Virus record (IMG/VR): IMGVR_UViG_3300028833_000087
Span: 32,001 to 96,000 of that record
Source of the DNA: a virus
Taxonomy: Duplodnaviria; Caudoviricetes
Length of the DNA stretch: 64,000 nucleotides
Reading direction: 5' to 3' (one strand)
Part shown: in pieces, positions 7,766-38,398 of the stretch
Layout of the letters: each line of letters begins with the position of its first letter
How positions within the stretch are numbered: position 1 is the stretch's first letter
Notes under the pieces: generated by a model
Databases searched by the model: none
Seen by the model: the letters and a program-made list of their open reading frames with translations, nothing else
Told to the model about the DNA's origin: nothing
Translations under genes and position numbers: made by a program

Positions 7766-7866
7766 ATATATCCTCCAGGAAAAATTCCTGGAGGATTAAT
7801 TTTCTTTATAATTGTATATTATAATTATGGTAAATACATTAAATTTATACCGAAAGGAGAAACAAA

Positions 7867-34823: not shown

Positions 34824-35565
34824 TCCCAACAGTGATAATTATATTATGAACGAAGAGGGAGAAAGAATTCGCCATCTCGATGATACTACGCTCTCCCGGA
34901 TAGTTTATATCAATGGTCATGGATCATCTGAGATTACATGGCAGTCTGAATTAAAGAAGCAATTCTGTGGTATGTATTATACAGAAAAGCTTTATGACGA
35001 TGATAACGCTGTGTACTATTTCGATGATGGTTATTACAACAAGATGTACAATTCCGGATATATCGTGTTGAATAACTATGACGGTATGAAGGCATCGAAG
35101 GAACTCGGAGAAAGTATTTCCAAAAAACTCTTTTTCAAGATTCATGAAACTTTCGAAATGCTTCAACATGAAAGTATCGAAAGAATCGATGAGAAAGAAA
35201 AAGATCCTGTGCTCATTGTGAAGATCAATAGTTTTCCGTATGAGTATACAATCAGATGTCGTAGTACAACTTCTTTGTCTGAAGCAAATCAGATGAGAAA
35301 GATCAATAATCTTCCATTTTATCCGTTTGATGTAAGAATGGATAAATATGGTACATATTACATTGCATGCTATGCTAAGCTGCAGAACGATGTGATTCTT
35401 GATGATCTGGATAGAGAAAGTATAACTCCTCCTGATAAATACATCATGAATCTACTTATGAATTTCACACAAAAGATAAATAACGAGAGTAAGAGTGATA
35501 TCTATCATTATGAACCGGTAAAGGCAAAGAAGCCGGTGATCTATTCCGAGAGGAATGACATTTAA
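34801..35565 (+). CDS. hypothetical protein
   Basis: Start moved to ATG 34801; shares an MDKY.T.Y motif with the previous ORF. Confidence 0.65.
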   Translation: MIRVINLDPNSDNYIMNEEGERIRHLDDTTLSRIVYINGHGSSEITWQSELKKQFCGMYYTEKLYDDDNAVYYFDDGYYNKMYNSGYIVLNNYDGMKASKELGESISKKLFFKIHETFEMLQHESIERIDEKEKDPVLIVKINSFPYEYTIRCRSTTSLSEANQMRKINNLPFYPFDVRMDKYGTYYIACYAKLQNDVILDDLDRESITPPDKYIMNLLMNFTQKINNESKSDIYHYEPVKAKKPVIYSERNDI

Positions 35566-35630
35566 TGTTAACCCGCTGTGAAAAACAGCGGGTTTTCTTT
35601 TTTGACATATACGTAAAGGAGGTGATGCCA

Positions 35631-36089
35631 ATGGAACTTAAAGACTATGGAGAATCCAGTAAGTTCTACAAGGATGAGTATAAAGAATATAAGAAAGAAC
35701 TTGAAAAAGTTGAAAAGAACAAAACTGCATTCATGTGGATCACTGAATTTTCGAAAAAAGTAGTCGTGGTAATTTTTGTAGCATATATACTTATGGCTAT
35801 TTTCTCTTGTGTTATGGTATTTCTGTCAATGCGAATTACAGGTATGGTATCAGGATTAGAAACCTTGATTACTGAAATGAATACTACATTTAGAGATATC
35901 GTTGGTGGATATCTTGTAAAAGCAGGTGTAGAGAATGCTGTAAAGATCGGTGGAAATTACTATGTAGGTGTAGCAGATGCTAGACTTCGAGAACTCAGAG
36001 AAAGATTAAATCTTAAAGGAAAAGACACATTTGAAACAGATGACTGTTCTGATGGAGCTTCCTTTGAGAACTTTGATGAAGAATCATAA
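35631..36089 (+). CDS. membrane protein
   Basis: Hydrophobic segment VVVVIFVAYILMAIFSCVMVFL; AAGGAGGTG RBS. Confidence 0.7.
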   Translation: MELKDYGESSKFYKDEYKEYKKELEKVEKNKTAFMWITEFSKKVVVVIFVAYILMAIFSCVMVFLSMRITGMVSGLETLITEMNTTFRDIVGGYLVKAGVENAVKIGGNYYVGVADARLRELRERLNLKGKDTFETDDCSDGASFENFDEES

Positions 36090-36167
36090 AATAAGTCCCT
36101 AGGGAGAAAATCCCTAGGGATATTTATTTCTGTCAGCATTAAAAAATTCGATTATATATTATAATTG

Positions 36168-36668
36168 TGATAGGTGGATAGTCATACGGATCCACATTAA
36201 CTATCCATGCAGCCGAAGCAACAAGTTTCGGAACACAGTCGTATCTGGCTACGCAAGCGACGATAAATAAATCAAGTGTAGAAGATGACTCGTCGAACCA
36301 TATCGCGAGTATAAAAATACATGGTTAAGAATGGCTTCTAACTTGTAAAAGAAGAATGCAATTTATATTGCATGACTTAGAGCCCGAGCAAAGCTCGTTA
36401 AACAATACTCGTAACAGGGTCCTGAATGCGAGTATAAATAATATTTGGGTTGTAGCAAGGCTTGAGCTAGCGTAAAAACCAGAGAGCTACACGCTGCTGT
36501 AGTAGACCATCGCGTGTATAAATAAATAGAGTGGTCGAAGCCTTTGATTCCGCATGGAGCCCTGGGTCAAAGGAAAGCCAAGGAGAAAAAAGGGCTCCGT
36601 TTTAACAACAGGGCAAAAGAACAACGGGCTAGTGTAATACTAGCCCGCCCGTAATGGGTTTTATTTTT
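36168..36668 (+). ncRNA. large structured ncRNA composed of tandem H-type pseudoknots
   Basis: ORF-free, GC-elevated; TATATTATA at 36155-36163; at least 5 pseudoknots with A-rich linkers; hairpins and T run at 36625-36668. Confidence 0.7.
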
Positions 36669-37111
36669 TATAAGTATTTATAAGGTTCTTCACTTCTACC
36701 ATCTTTAGTTTCTACAACGATTATACTTCCATCAAAAAAGCTATAAATCTTAGGATCTAATAAACTGAATCTTGATACATATTTTCTTTTTTCATAATTA
36801 TCCTGAGGGAATCTTAACACCTCAGCATAATTATCACACAGTATAACTTGATGCATATTCTCATAATCTATATCTTGAGATTTTAATTTAAATATATCAT
36901 AGTATTTATTATTATAAGAATAATGAGTATCAATATATGCTTTAGTAGTTATAGGTAATAATTTATAAGTACCATTAAAATTATTAACTGAATTAATTTC
37001 ATTTGCAATTATAAGCATTTTCTCATCTAAAGTTCTATATTTATAAAAATTATCCCAATCATTTATAATTTTTATAAGTTCTATTTCAGTATCATTATTT
37101 ATACAAATCAT
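36668..37111 (-). CDS. hypothetical protein
   Basis: 147-aa ORF with GAGGAGG RBS. Confidence 0.65.
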   Translation of the reverse strand: MICINNDTEIELIKIINDWDNFYKYRTLDEKMLIIANEINSVNNFNGTYKLLPITTKAYIDTHYSYNNKYYDIFKLKSQDIDYENMHQVILCDNYAEVLRFPQDNYEKRKYVSRFSLLDPKIYSFFDGSIIVVETKDGRSEEPYKYL

Positions 37112-37378
37112 CTAAGATACCTCCTCTTTTTATTAAGAATGTAAAGCTGTATATTTATAGTTATATATTATAAATATGGAACATATAGTGATTCACCAAA
37201 ATACTACGCTTACCTCGTAGTCATAACGGGTACGATGCACCCGAAGCATCCCCACAGCAAACCTAAGCTAATGGTAAAAATTCTGGCACAGGTATTGGAT
37301 TCGGCCTGGTTAAATAATAGAATTGTAGGGATAGGTAAGATCCCACTTCCTAATTATATTAGGAGAAAGGAGGTCGTT

Positions 37379-38398
37379 ATGATAACCTCTACAAATTTTG
37401 GTACCGAAAACTTTGCAAAGTCCGCATCAGAAGTATTGCGGAGCGCTAAATCTGTTGTGTTGTATGTCCACGACGGATTGTTTCATGCTGATGATGTACT
37501 GTGTGCTGTTCTGTTCGAGGCACATTATAAAAATATCGACAGAAAGGTTATTCGCCGTCGAATGACAATTGATGATATCGAGGAGTTAAAATCACTCGAC
37601 GATGGCATCACCCGTATTGTCTGTGATACAGGGTGTCAGGATTTAGTCACAGACAACTTGTTAGTGCTTGATCATCATTCGGATAACAAGTTAACTTACA
37701 TGAATGGTGTACAGTATGCAGCTGTAGGAAAGTTTGCTAGCTGCTTACGCTGGGCATTTCCTGATTCCAAGATTGCATCATCAGGCCTGTATAATTTTCA
37801 GAAGACAGTGCTCTGGCCAGTTGAAGTTCAGGACAATGGTCAGAAAGCTGAGGATCTGAACATCCAACTGTATCCTAATTTATTTAGCTGGATTAGTGTT
37901 TTCAACTGCTCATGGAATGAAGATTGGACCGAGTCTAGTGACAGATTCTTTGAAGCAGTTGAGCTGGCGACTAAAATCCTTGATCGCCAGTTTACAAGAT
38001 TGGAAGGTCTGGTCGAAGCTTGGGAAATAGTAGAGAATGAAATTGAATCTCTGAATCCTTCCGAGATACTTGTTCTTGGCAAGTATGTTCCTTGGCAGGA
38101 GCCGGTAATTGGATATAATCAGCTACATTGTAACCAGATTAAGCTGATTATATTTAAGTCCACCGGAGATCAGTGGAACTGCCAGTGCGTCCCTGTAGCA
38201 CTTGGTAGTTTTGATACGATAATTAAAGCACCGGAAGAATGGGGAGGTAAGACAGGAGTTGAGCTTGAAGTCCTGTCTGGTATAGAAGGAGCAGTATTCT
38301 GTCACCGTGGACTTTGGCTCACTGTATGGAAAACAAAAGACGCTGCTCTTAAAGCTGCAGAATTAATTCTGGATAAAAATTCTACAGAAAGCGAATGA
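37379..38398 (+). CDS. MYG1/UPF0160-family DHH exonuclease
   Basis: HDGLFHADD, LDHH, APEEWGG..G.EL...SGI.GA.FCH; start after AAAGGAGG. Confidence 0.88.
   Translation: MITSTNFGTENFAKSASEVLRSAKSVVLYVHDGLFHADDVLCAVLFEAHYKNIDRKVIRRRMTIDDIEELKSLDDGITRIVCDTGCQDLVTDNLLVLDHHSDNKLTYMNGVQYAAVGKFASCLRWAFPDSKIASSGLYNFQKTVLWPVEVQDNGQKAEDLNIQLYPNLFSWISVFNCSWNEDWTESSDRFFEAVELATKILDRQFTRLEGLVEAWEIVENEIESLNPSEILVLGKYVPWQEPVIGYNQLHCNQIKLIIFKSTGDQWNCQCVPVALGSFDTIIKAPEEWGGKTGVELEVLSGIEGAVFCHRGLWLTVWKTKDAALKAAELILDKNSTESE

What the first reader, a model, noticed from the sequence alone, without database searches (positions are those of the whole stretch)
36168..36668. ~490-nt ncRNA of tandem H-type pseudoknots: candidate polyvalent type III antitoxin mimic
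Seen (S1; S2): gtcgt/gcgac with ctacgc/gtgtag (36238-36281); actcg/cgagt with aaccat/atggtt (36288-36326); atactcgta/tgcgagtat with cctgaa/tttggg (36405-36449); tacacgc/gcgtgta with gaccat/gtggtc (36488-36536); cctttgattc/gggtcaaagg with atggagccct/agggctccgt (36541-36600). The first four share an ATAAA(T/A)A linker after S1, and the stems differ in sequence but keep pairing. The unit has its own promoter and terminator and no toxin ORF. Established: ToxI/CptI/TenpI antitoxins are tandem pseudoknots with A-rich loops, and phage phiTE uses pseudo-ToxI RNA to escape ToxIN. Inference: an early anti-defence RNA neutralising several ToxN/CptN-type toxins.
Basis: partly seen in the sequence, partly recalled or inferred. 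Interest (0 to 1): 0.78.

Follow-up and report, generated by a model that had tools for sequence, protein, structure and literature searches.

The report
Early jumbo-phage RNA of pseudoknot modules
An uncultured giant phage of gut or rumen bacteria carries a separately transcribed, protein-free RNA of about 500 bases, built from four copies of a small knot-like fold plus one larger knot; the fold recurs in other giant phages and resembles the non-catalytic half of the pistol ribozyme, nothing ties it to toxin-antitoxin RNAs, and its job is unknown.

Summary
All five stem pairs are at the stated coordinates. Four units share a 14-nt motif, GCG(A/U)(G/C)(U/G)AUAAA(U/A)A(A/U). The stretch is richer in G+C than its flanks and folds far better than shuffles (z -5.1). 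A strong terminator separates it from the upstream gene. It starts at a TATATTAT-(6N)-G element, the published early promoter type of AR9-like jumbo phages, and ends at its own terminator.

The antitoxin-mimic reading is not supported:
- The units are not tandem repeats; spacing is 48, 123 and 84 nt.
- The 121-kb contig holds no ToxN-family gene.
- No similar motif arrays were found in 401 Lachnospiraceae genomes.

The unit signature, ACUCGU-loop-GCGAGUAUAAA with a pseudoknot behind the A-rich linker, matches the P1 and linker consensus of the pistol ribozyme. The catalytic core is missing and scores stay below threshold. The same signature occurs in at least 80 viral contigs against 9 for a non-pairing control, mostly jumbo phages. 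There it sits after stop codons or just ahead of tRNA genes, and in one subfamily the pseudoknot covaries.

No homologue of the whole RNA could be fetched, and no expression data were available. Function is inferred: most likely a stable RNA that presents several copies of the module.

This scan has noted pseudoknot-array RNAs in other phages before; none is alike in sequence.

The parts
36095..36121 (+). Intrinsic terminator of the upstream gene; it separates that gene's transcript from the RNA
   Evidence: 11-bp stem, 6 G-C pairs, followed by a U-rich tail
36152..36169 (+). Early promoter of the type read by the virion RNA polymerase, TTATATATTAT-(6N)-G; predicted start at G36169
   Evidence: The same element stands before genes, a tRNA-like RNA and a guide-RNA array at 7815, 26946, 37164, 39901, 49537 and 59979, each with G after 6 nt. 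AR9 early consensus is AAATATATATTAT-(6N)-G+1 (PMC5312081)
36174..36231 (+). 5' domain: hairpins 36174-36195 (GUGGAU/AUCCAC) and 36213-36231 (CCGAAGC/GUUUCGG)
   Evidence: Present in the MFE structure
36238..36281 (+). Module 1 (divergent): S1 GUCGU/GCGAC, S2 CUACGC/GUGUAG, linker GAUAAAUAAAUCAA
   Evidence: (S2 p about 0.006 by energy). Module model scores 12.5 bits, E 2.2
36288..36347 (+). Module 2: P1 ACUCGU/GCGAGU, pseudoknot AACCAU/AUGGUU, linker AUAAAAAUAC. It is followed by pistol-like P2 (36318-21/36344-47) and P3 (36328-31/36336-39) but has no catalytic nucleotides
   Evidence: (Pistol 15.5 bits, gathering 34.5)
36356..36396 (+). Central hairpins AUGCAAU/AUUGCAU (36356-36373) and GAGC/GCUC (36386-36396)
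   Evidence: MFE structure
36405..36449 (+). Module 3: P1 AUACUCGUA/UGCGAGUAU; proposed S2 CCUGAA/UUUGGG is weak
   Evidence: S2 not significant; Pistol 11 bits
36488..36536 (+). Module 4: P1 UACACGC/GCGUGUA, with a compensatory U-A to A-U change relative to modules 2 and 3; S2 GACCAU/GUGGUC
   Evidence: Module model scores 20.0 bits, E 0.085, third best in the window
36541..36600 (+). Large pseudoknot 5: S1 CCUUUGAUUC/GGGUCAAAGG, S2 AUGGAGCCCU/AGGGCUCCGU, 17-nt purine-rich loop
   Evidence: Rival long-range helices
36625..36669 (+). 3' hairpin (36625-36647, also the terminator of the convergent minus-strand gene) and the RNA's own terminator GCCCGUAAUGGGU plus a U run

Best explanation
This is a separate, non-coding, early transcription unit of an AR9/phiKZ-type jumbo phage. 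Transcription is predicted to start at G36169, 6 nt behind a TATATTAT element read by the virion RNA polymerase, and to stop at the terminator near 36660-36669, giving an RNA of about 500 nt.

The RNA is a string of compact folds. Four are paralogous H-type pseudoknot modules: a conserved hairpin ACNCGY/GCGNGU, then a linker AUAAAUAAA that would lie in the hairpin's minor groove, then a strand that pairs with the hairpin loop. There is also one large 10+10-bp pseudoknot and several hairpins.

The module belongs to a class that other large phages use singly, after stop codons and ahead of tRNA genes. It equals the P1 / pseudoknot / A-rich-linker half of the pistol ribozyme without the cleaving half.

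Shown: the anatomy, the promoter type, the wider module class, and covariation of the pseudoknot in one subfamily elsewhere.

Inferred: the RNA works as a stable display of several copies of this module. As such it would bind and titrate whatever factor recognises the module, either a host or phage RNA-binding protein or an RNase, early in infection. It would not work as an antitoxin copy or as a ribozyme.
For: - Separate unit: terminator of the upstream gene, then promoter, then its own terminator.
- Promoter equals the AR9 early consensus, and the RNA polymerase beta subunit is closest to the AR9, PBS1 and Staphylococcus jumbo phages.
- Structure: z = -5.07 and raised G+C. All stems verified. 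S2 present in all four units under one geometry against 8% of controls.
- Paralogy: a 14-nt motif four times, with compensatory changes in S1 between units, read directly from the sequence.
- No Rfam family at gathering score, and no tRNA or tmRNA.
- Module class: the signature is in at least 80 viral contigs against 9 for a composition-matched control that cannot pair.
- Covariation elsewhere: in one subfamily 3 of 7 pseudoknot pairs change on both sides and 96.9% of cells pair, against 20-45% when the partner columns are slid.
- The two best Pistol-model hits in the 121-kb contig are modules 2 and 3.
- Context elsewhere: modules sit after stop codons and 43-50 nt ahead of tRNAs.
Against: - No homologue of the whole RNA was found, so its own structure has no covariation support.
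- There are no expression data.
- The S2 of module 3 is no better than chance.
- The global MFE uses different long-range helices in the 3' part.
- Module 1 is not recognised by the module model (12.5 bits).
- The signature search is heterogeneous; some hits look like promoters or coding sequence.
- The sponge or display function is pure inference. No binding partner is known and the neighbouring genes give no hint.
Confidence: 0.4

Rival explanations
1. Processed precursor. The modules are cis-acting punctuation or stability elements, either recognition sites for an endonuclease or blocks to exonucleases. The 500-nt transcript would be cut into several small stable RNAs, as in phage tRNA operons.
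For: In other phages the same module stands at transcript boundaries: 7-12 nt after stop codons, before terminators, and 43-50 nt ahead of tRNA genes in 26 of 112 cases (27 within 100 nt). A MYG1-family exonuclease gene with its own early promoter lies next door.
Against: No cleavage sites or RNA ends could be observed. The tRNA link comes from two near-identical subfamilies. There is no tRNA in or beside this RNA.
Confidence: 0.22
2. Type III antitoxin mimic. Each pseudoknot binds and blocks a ToxN-, CptN- or AbiF-type endoribonuclease of the host.
For: The fold class matches: an H-type pseudoknot with an A-rich minor-groove loop, as in CptI of a Lachnospiraceae bacterium. The linkers contain AAAU. 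Expression is predicted to be early. Non-identical repeats exist in tenpI. The probable hosts are Lachnospiraceae.
Against: There are no tandem repeats. The contig has no ToxN-family gene. No similar arrays were found in 401 Lachnospiraceae genomes. Rfam gives no ToxI hit even at E up to 10. The same conserved module occurs singly in unrelated contexts in many phages.
Confidence: 0.06
3. Variant self-cleaving ribozymes. One or more modules, above all module 2 with its P2 and P3, are divergent pistol ribozymes that cut the transcript.
For: P1 and the linker match the Pistol consensus, and module 2 has pistol topology. It is the best Pistol hit in the contig. Pistols are common in Firmicutes phages (PMC4604425).
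Against: Scores of 15.5 and 11 bits fall short of the 34.5 gathering score. The conserved nucleotides before and after the 3' pseudoknot strand are absent. The P3-P2 junction is 4 nt, or CU, instead of the strictly 2-nt GU junction. Modules 1, 3 and 4 have no P2.
Confidence: 0.06
4. Not a functional RNA gene. It is a small-protein gene (39-aa ORF, 36356-36475) or a DNA-level element, and the predicted structure is incidental.
For: One ATG ORF of 39 aa lies inside the region. The minus strand also folds well, z = -4.46.
Against: The ORF's start codon lies inside a 7-bp hairpin and has no clear ribosome-binding site. The G-U pairs make the structure strand-specific. The module class covaries as RNA elsewhere. 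The promoter and terminator bracket the whole region.
Confidence: 0.05

Closest known systems
Pistol self-cleaving ribozyme (Rfam RF02679; Harris 2015, PMC4604425)
   Same: The hairpin P1 has nearly the consensus sequence (acUCGUC..GAgu). It is followed by the AUAAAuA linker and by a pseudoknot between the P1 loop and downstream nucleotides. Pistols, like this RNA, are found in Firmicutes phages. Module 2 even has P2 and P3 in pistol order.
   Different: Scores are 15.5 and 11 bits against a gathering score of 34.5. The conserved core nucleotides and the 2-nt GU cleavage junction are missing, and three of the four modules have no P2 or P3. This is the handle without the blade.
Type III antitoxin RNAs ToxI, CptI and TenpI, and pseudo-ToxI of phage PhiTE (PMC4627078, PMC12283969, PMC3475682)
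   Same: Small H-type pseudoknots with an A-rich loop in the minor groove of stem 1, several per transcript, ending at a terminator. The phage-borne, toxin-less precedent is pseudo-ToxI.
   Different: Those are contiguous tandem repeats of 34-45 nt, cut by the toxin at each repeat boundary and lying next to a toxin gene or closely matching a host antitoxin. Here spacing is irregular, other domains lie between the units, and no related host array was found.
Large structured phage RNAs of unknown function (GOLLD RF02032, ROOL RF03087)
   Same: Stand-alone phage non-coding RNAs of several hundred nt, rich in pseudoknots, often near tRNA genes. ROOL lies about 230 nt downstream of this module in L201 and L204.
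   Different: No sequence or covariance-model similarity. This RNA is modular rather than one large fold.
tmRNA
   Same: A chain of pseudoknots in an RNA of 350-500 nt.
   Different: There is no tRNA-like domain and no tag reading frame. ARAGORN and Rfam find nothing.
preQ1-I riboswitch aptamer
   Same: Short stem, then an AUAAAAAA-type tail, then a pseudoknot with the loop.
   Different: No Rfam hit at E up to 10. The loop nucleotides that would bind the ligand are not conserved among the units. No gene lies downstream.

Membership tests
Type III antitoxin RNA / pseudo-ToxI-type mimic | Contiguous tandem direct repeats of about 34-45 nt (near-identical; up to 35% divergent in tenpI) | tested here: not met
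   TRF finds no array. Only a 14-nt motif is shared, with spacing 48, 123 and 84 nt.
Type III antitoxin RNA / pseudo-ToxI-type mimic | Adjacent toxin gene or, for a mimic, clear sequence likeness to a host antitoxin | tested here: not met
   No PF13958 match in the 121-kb contig, which is 49% complete. The tandem motif pattern in 401 Lachnospiraceae genomes is at control level. The host is not known for certain, and CptN and TenpN families were not searched.
Type III antitoxin RNA / pseudo-ToxI-type mimic | Each unit folds as an H-type pseudoknot with an A-rich loop | tested here: met
   Predicted only. The S2 of unit 3 is weak.
Type III antitoxin RNA / pseudo-ToxI-type mimic | Binds, is processed by, and neutralises a ToxN-type endoribonuclease | not testable with these tools
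   Needs co-expression and cleavage assays.
Pistol ribozyme (RF02679) | Covariance-model score at or above the gathering score of 34.5 bits | tested here: not met
   15.5 bits (module 2) and 11 bits (module 3).
Pistol ribozyme (RF02679) | P1 hairpin, A-rich linker, and a pseudoknot between the P1 loop and downstream nucleotides | tested here: met
   Alignment to the consensus; stems.
Pistol ribozyme (RF02679) | P2 and P3 with a strictly 2-nt (GU) junction at the cleavage site, plus the highly conserved core nucleotides | tested here: not met
   Module 2 has P2 and P3 but a 4-nt AACU junction and none of the nucleotides flanking the 3' pseudoknot strand. Modules 1, 3 and 4 have no P2. Read directly from the sequence; definition from PMC4604425.
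AR9-type early transcription unit (virion RNA polymerase) | Promoter AAATATATATTAT-(6N)-G+1 | tested here: met
   GATTATATATTAT-AATTGT-G at 36150-36169; 11 of 13 positions match, with the same spacing and G start. The element is repeated before other genes. Actual initiation was not measured.
ACUCGU / CGAGUAUAAA pseudoknot module (class defined here) | Hairpin (A)CUCGU..CGAGU, linker AUAAAYAA, 3' strand pairing with the 3' part of the loop | tested here: met
   Modules 2 and 3 carry the signature. They were in the model's training set and score 31 bits. Module 4 is independent: 20.0 bits, E 0.085. Module 1 is inconclusive at 12.5 bits. All four fit the geometry.
tmRNA, GOLLD, ROOL, OLE, preQ1-I and other Rfam families | Match to the family model | tested here: not met
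   No hit at gathering score in the whole window. Nothing relevant at E up to 10. ARAGORN finds nothing.

The most novel reading that the evidence does not exclude
The ACUCGU-loop-CGAGUAUAAA pseudoknot is an undescribed, widespread stand-alone RNA module of large phages: the non-catalytic handle of the pistol ribozyme used on its own. A conserved factor of the tRNA-processing or RNA-decay machinery, or of a defence system, recognises it. This 500-nt early RNA is a four-fold sponge or decoy for that factor and so part of host take-over or counter-defence.
Probability: 0.2. Interest if true: 0.75.

Novelty: new variant of a known kind. Interest (0 to 1): 0.5.

Why it matters
Very few functions are known for phage-encoded structured RNAs. 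Here a giant phage devotes an early promoter, of the type read by the polymerase it injects, to an RNA that carries four copies of one compact fold. The same fold turns up singly in scores of other giant-phage contigs, at gene ends and in front of tRNA genes.

If one factor reads this fold, the RNA would be a natural multivalent decoy. The module would also be a new handle on RNA processing or defence evasion in phages that are hard to culture. The link to the pistol ribozyme bears on how that ribozyme was assembled: a pre-existing pseudoknot scaffold plus a catalytic add-on, or the reverse.

Tried and rejected
Homologue hunts that found nothing:
- blastn of the RNA against GenBank phages.
- Neighbouring proteins against IMG/VR: single proteins, and an alignment that gave 23 distant loci with no RNA or gap in the same place.
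- JGI metagenomes, by protein and by a two-unit DNA pattern; all 103 pattern hits were chance.
- GTDB genomes.
- A two-unit pattern in IMG/VR.
- The 14-nt motif in five related jumbo records.
- nhmmer of the RNA against all 111 module-bearing loci.
- This scan's own index of look-alike stretches.

Tools unavailable:
The close relatives whose neighbouring protein is 59-87% identical (P0002-P0009, ENA and Logan only) therefore could not be fetched.

Ideas rejected:
- tmRNA, tRNA-like ends, riboswitch aptamers and known large RNAs.
- Nesting of neighbouring modules into complete pistols, checked by hand.
- A sigma-70 promoter reading of the TATAAA boxes; this RNA has no -35 element.

Other attempts:
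- A two-layer fold meant to recover pseudoknots automatically gave nothing useful.
- MAFFT could not place all four units in register.
- A literature search for the motif string found nothing relevant.

Full report
CONTEXT. The window is part of a 121-kb IMG/VR virus contig, estimated 49% complete. It encodes a 1604-aa multisubunit RNA polymerase beta subunit. The nearest GenBank relatives of that subunit, at about 30% identity, are the Staphylococcus and Bacillus AR9/PBS1-type jumbo phages. The small membrane protein just upstream of the finding has relatives in Butyrivibrio phages and in Lachnospiraceae prophages. A rumen or gut Lachnospiraceae host is therefore plausible but not shown.

THE OBSERVATION. 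The shared ATAAA(T/A)A is part of a longer 14-nt motif, GCG(A/T)(G/C)(T/G)ATAAA(T/A)A(A/T). It occurs four times, at 36257, 36305, 36428 and 36512.

The region has no ORF longer than 45 aa. Its G+C is 0.39-0.455 against roughly 0.18-0.37 in the adjoining genes. It folds at -149 kcal/mol against -119.9 +/- 5.8 for dinucleotide shuffles, z = -5.07. The minus strand also folds well (z = -4.46). However, about ten G-U pairs in the proposed stems would be C-A mismatches on that strand, so the RNA is read from the + strand.

ARE THE PSEUDOKNOTS MORE THAN CHANCE?
- With the loop and tail shuffled, the S2 helix has p about 0.006 (unit 1), 0.06 (unit 2), 0.37 (unit 3) and 0.04 (unit 4) by duplex energy.
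- Under one fixed geometry all four units have at least 6 bp. The geometry requires the 5' strand to end 0-3 nt before the 3' strand of S1, and the 3' strand to start 7-14 nt after it. Only 8% of shuffled controls reach 6 bp. I chose these limits after seeing the data.
- Unit 3's S2 is energetically negligible (-1.0 kcal/mol). Its loop can instead extend the hairpin.
- Pseudoknot 5 has two 10-bp stems of -10.4 and -16.8 kcal/mol. The global MFE replaces parts of it with long-range helices: 36204-10/36552-58, 36333-38/36537-42 and 36559-64/36609-14. Without relatives I cannot decide between these folds.
- Between the four units, S1 changes in a compensatory way. Position 3 is U-A in units 1-3 and A-U in unit 4; position 2 is C-G in units 2-4 and G-C in unit 1. 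All four S2 helices differ in sequence.

TRANSCRIPTION UNIT. The upstream gene ends at 36089 and is followed by a strong terminator at 36095-36121. At 36152-36164 lies TTATATATTATAA. The core TATATTATA recurs in intergenic positions on the + strand at 7815, 26946, 37164, 39901, 49537 and 59979, each followed 6 nt after TATATTAT by a G.

This is the experimentally defined early promoter of phage AR9, AAATATATATTAT-(6N)-G+1, used by the injected virion RNA polymerase (PMC5312081). The same motif was found bioinformatically in Staphylococcus jumbo phages. The predicted start is G36169.

The RNA ends at GCCCGUAAUGGGU plus a U run (36647-36669). That terminator abuts the stop codon of a convergent gene, which has its own terminator hairpin at 36623-36649 on the other strand. 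Initiation itself was not observed.

KNOWN FAMILIES. Rfam 15 gives no hit at gathering score anywhere in the window. ARAGORN finds no tRNA or tmRNA. At E up to 10, the only hit inside the RNA is Pistol (RF02679), 15.5 bits at 36288-36347, which is module 2.

Over the whole 121-kb contig, the two best Pistol hits are modules 2 and 3, at 15.5 and 11 bits. The alignment shows why. The Pistol consensus for P1 and the linker reads acUCGUCug..GAguAUAAAuA. Modules 2 and 3 read ACUCGU..GCGAGUAUAAA(A/U)A.

Module 2 also has helices in pistol order: P2 UACA/UGUA and P3 AGAA/UUCU. However, it lacks the conserved nucleotides on either side of the 3' pseudoknot strand. It also lacks the strictly 2-nt GU junction that defines the cleavage site (PMC4604425). 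The other modules have no P2 at all. The modules therefore correspond to the non-catalytic P1 / pseudoknot / linker half of a pistol and are not pistol ribozymes.

A WIDER MODULE CLASS. No homologue of the whole RNA was found (see Tried and rejected). The module signature, however, is common.
- ACTCGT-N(8-20)-GCGAGTATAAA gave 51 viral loci.
- CTCGT-N(8-22)-CGAGTATAAAYAAW gave 80 loci, which is the listing cap.
- A control pattern of the same composition, whose second arm cannot pair, gave 9.
- Many hits lie on contigs of 100-250 kb, and a large share come from one sample series.
- None of the 40 loci scanned with Rfam (of 111) has a Pistol match at gathering score; weak Pistol matches of about 11 bits fall on the modules of the two records checked.

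The set is heterogeneous. One group (L209, L218 and others) may be a promoter, TTGAT-17-TATAAA, with an inverted repeat. A second group has exactly the geometry of the present units: L211, L217, two copies in L245, L273 and L260. These begin 7-12 nt after a stop codon. In five distinct sequences of that group, 96.9% of cells pair and 3 of 7 pseudoknot pairs change on both sides. Sliding the partner columns gives 20-45% pairing. The sample is small, but it supports the pseudoknot for this module type.

A third, nearly invariant group has the hairpin and linker 43 nt upstream of a tRNA gene; it comprises 22 loci (L251 type). Four more loci (L201 type) lie 50 nt upstream of a tRNA, with a ROOL RNA following in the two loci scanned with Rfam (L201, L204). 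In all, 27 of 112 modules have a tRNA within 100 nt downstream.

A covariance model built from 13 foreign modules plus units 2 and 3 scores unit 4 at 20.0 bits. That is E 0.085 and the third best hit in the window. Unit 1 scores only 12.5 bits.

THE ANTITOXIN-MIMIC IDEA. The fold class does resemble CptI, an H-type pseudoknot whose long A-rich loop lies in the minor groove of stem 1 (PMC4627078). Non-identical repeats are also known in tenpI (PMC12283969).

The defining arrangement is absent, however.
- No tandem repeat is detected and the spacing is irregular.
- Other structured domains separate the units.
- The contig has no ToxN-family gene.
- A search of 401 Lachnospiraceae genomes for two motif copies at antitoxin-like spacing gave counts equal to the reversed-pattern control.
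- Pseudo-ToxI, the only precedent, is a contiguous repeat that matches its host's ToxI at most positions (PMC3475682).
- The same conserved hairpin and linker occur singly in many phages, at gene ends and before tRNAs. That is hard to reconcile with mimicry of fast-evolving, toxin-specific antitoxins.

I give this reading about 6%.

WHAT IT MOST LIKELY IS. It is a real, separately transcribed early non-coding RNA whose repeated element belongs to an undescribed phage pseudoknot module related to the pistol P1 domain.

Within the module, the hairpin sequence and linker are conserved, while the pseudoknot strands vary and covary. That pattern points to a fixed triple-helical scaffold that a factor may read, rather than to a ligand pocket.

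Four copies on one stable early transcript suggest a display or sponge for that factor (about 40% for the full statement). Alternatively, the modules may mark processing or protection sites that yield several small RNAs (about 22%). Both are inferences; no binding partner, RNA ends or abundance could be examined.

EARLIER NOTES OF THIS SCAN. The same stretch was flagged in an overlapping window. Pseudoknot-array RNAs were also reported in several other phages, some next to tRNA-like genes. Variant pistols between phage genes were reported too, and that prompted the pistol tests here. None of those findings shares sequence with this RNA according to the look-ups.

Noticed in passing
window 7815, 26946, 36155, 37164, 39901, 49537, 59979 (+ strand); contig positions outside the window at -20504 and -18506: TATATTAT-(6N)-G elements with extended ATTA upstream, matching the AR9 early promoter. 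They precede protein genes, a tRNA-like RNA and a guide-RNA array, which suggests an early programme rich in non-coding RNAs.
   Followed up: partly
window 36356-36475 (+): A 39-aa ATG ORF inside the RNA. Its start codon lies in a 7-bp hairpin and there is no clear ribosome-binding site, so it is probably not a gene.
   Followed up: no
window 35565-36089 (+): Aligned relatives start at MPMELKDY, so the true start is probably 35652 (145 aa). The protein is a conserved small membrane protein also found in Butyrivibrio phages and Lachnospiraceae prophages.
   Followed up: partly
window 36668-37111 (-) and 37235-38398 (+): The convergent 147-aa gene is extremely A+T-rich (G+C about 0.2) and has no family match. 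The next gene is a MYG1-family (UPF0160) putative exonuclease behind its own early promoter.
   Followed up: no
L251:8697-8830 and 21 further loci (e.g. L254, L255, L262, L266, L283, L300): A nearly invariant ACUCGU..ACGAGUAUAAAUAAA hairpin, followed by a second hairpin, lies 43 nt upstream of an 80-nt tRNA gene. This heads tRNA arrays in jumbo-phage contigs.
   Followed up: partly
L211:1348-1394, L245:251-297 and 580-626, L260:721-769 (-), L273:8479-8525 (-): In the stop-codon-linked subfamily the pseudoknot is followed 3-6 nt later by CCA (AUCCA, AUUCCA, UCUCCA). This recalls pseudoknotted tRNA-like acceptor ends. Not tested.
   Followed up: no
L209:9117-9180, L218, L220, L221, L226, L243 (oriented as): A conserved element after a gene's stop codon reads like a promoter (TTGAT-17-TATAAA) but also has a covarying inverted repeat. 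In L220 and L221 it is followed by a tRNA-like T arm (GGUUCGAUUCC) that ARAGORN does not call.
   Followed up: partly
L201:270-864, L204:3461-4059 (-), L252:10783-10864: ROOL RNAs lie directly behind a module and a tRNA in two jumbo contigs. A RAGATH-12 RNA lies near another module.
   Followed up: no
L079, L081, L089, L097, L142 and others (Ga0056115 / Ga0056116 contigs): An unrelated repeated element of about 180 nt, present on many short contigs of one metagenome, also contains two GUAUAAAAAU boxes 81 nt apart. It was picked up only by the pattern.
   Followed up: no
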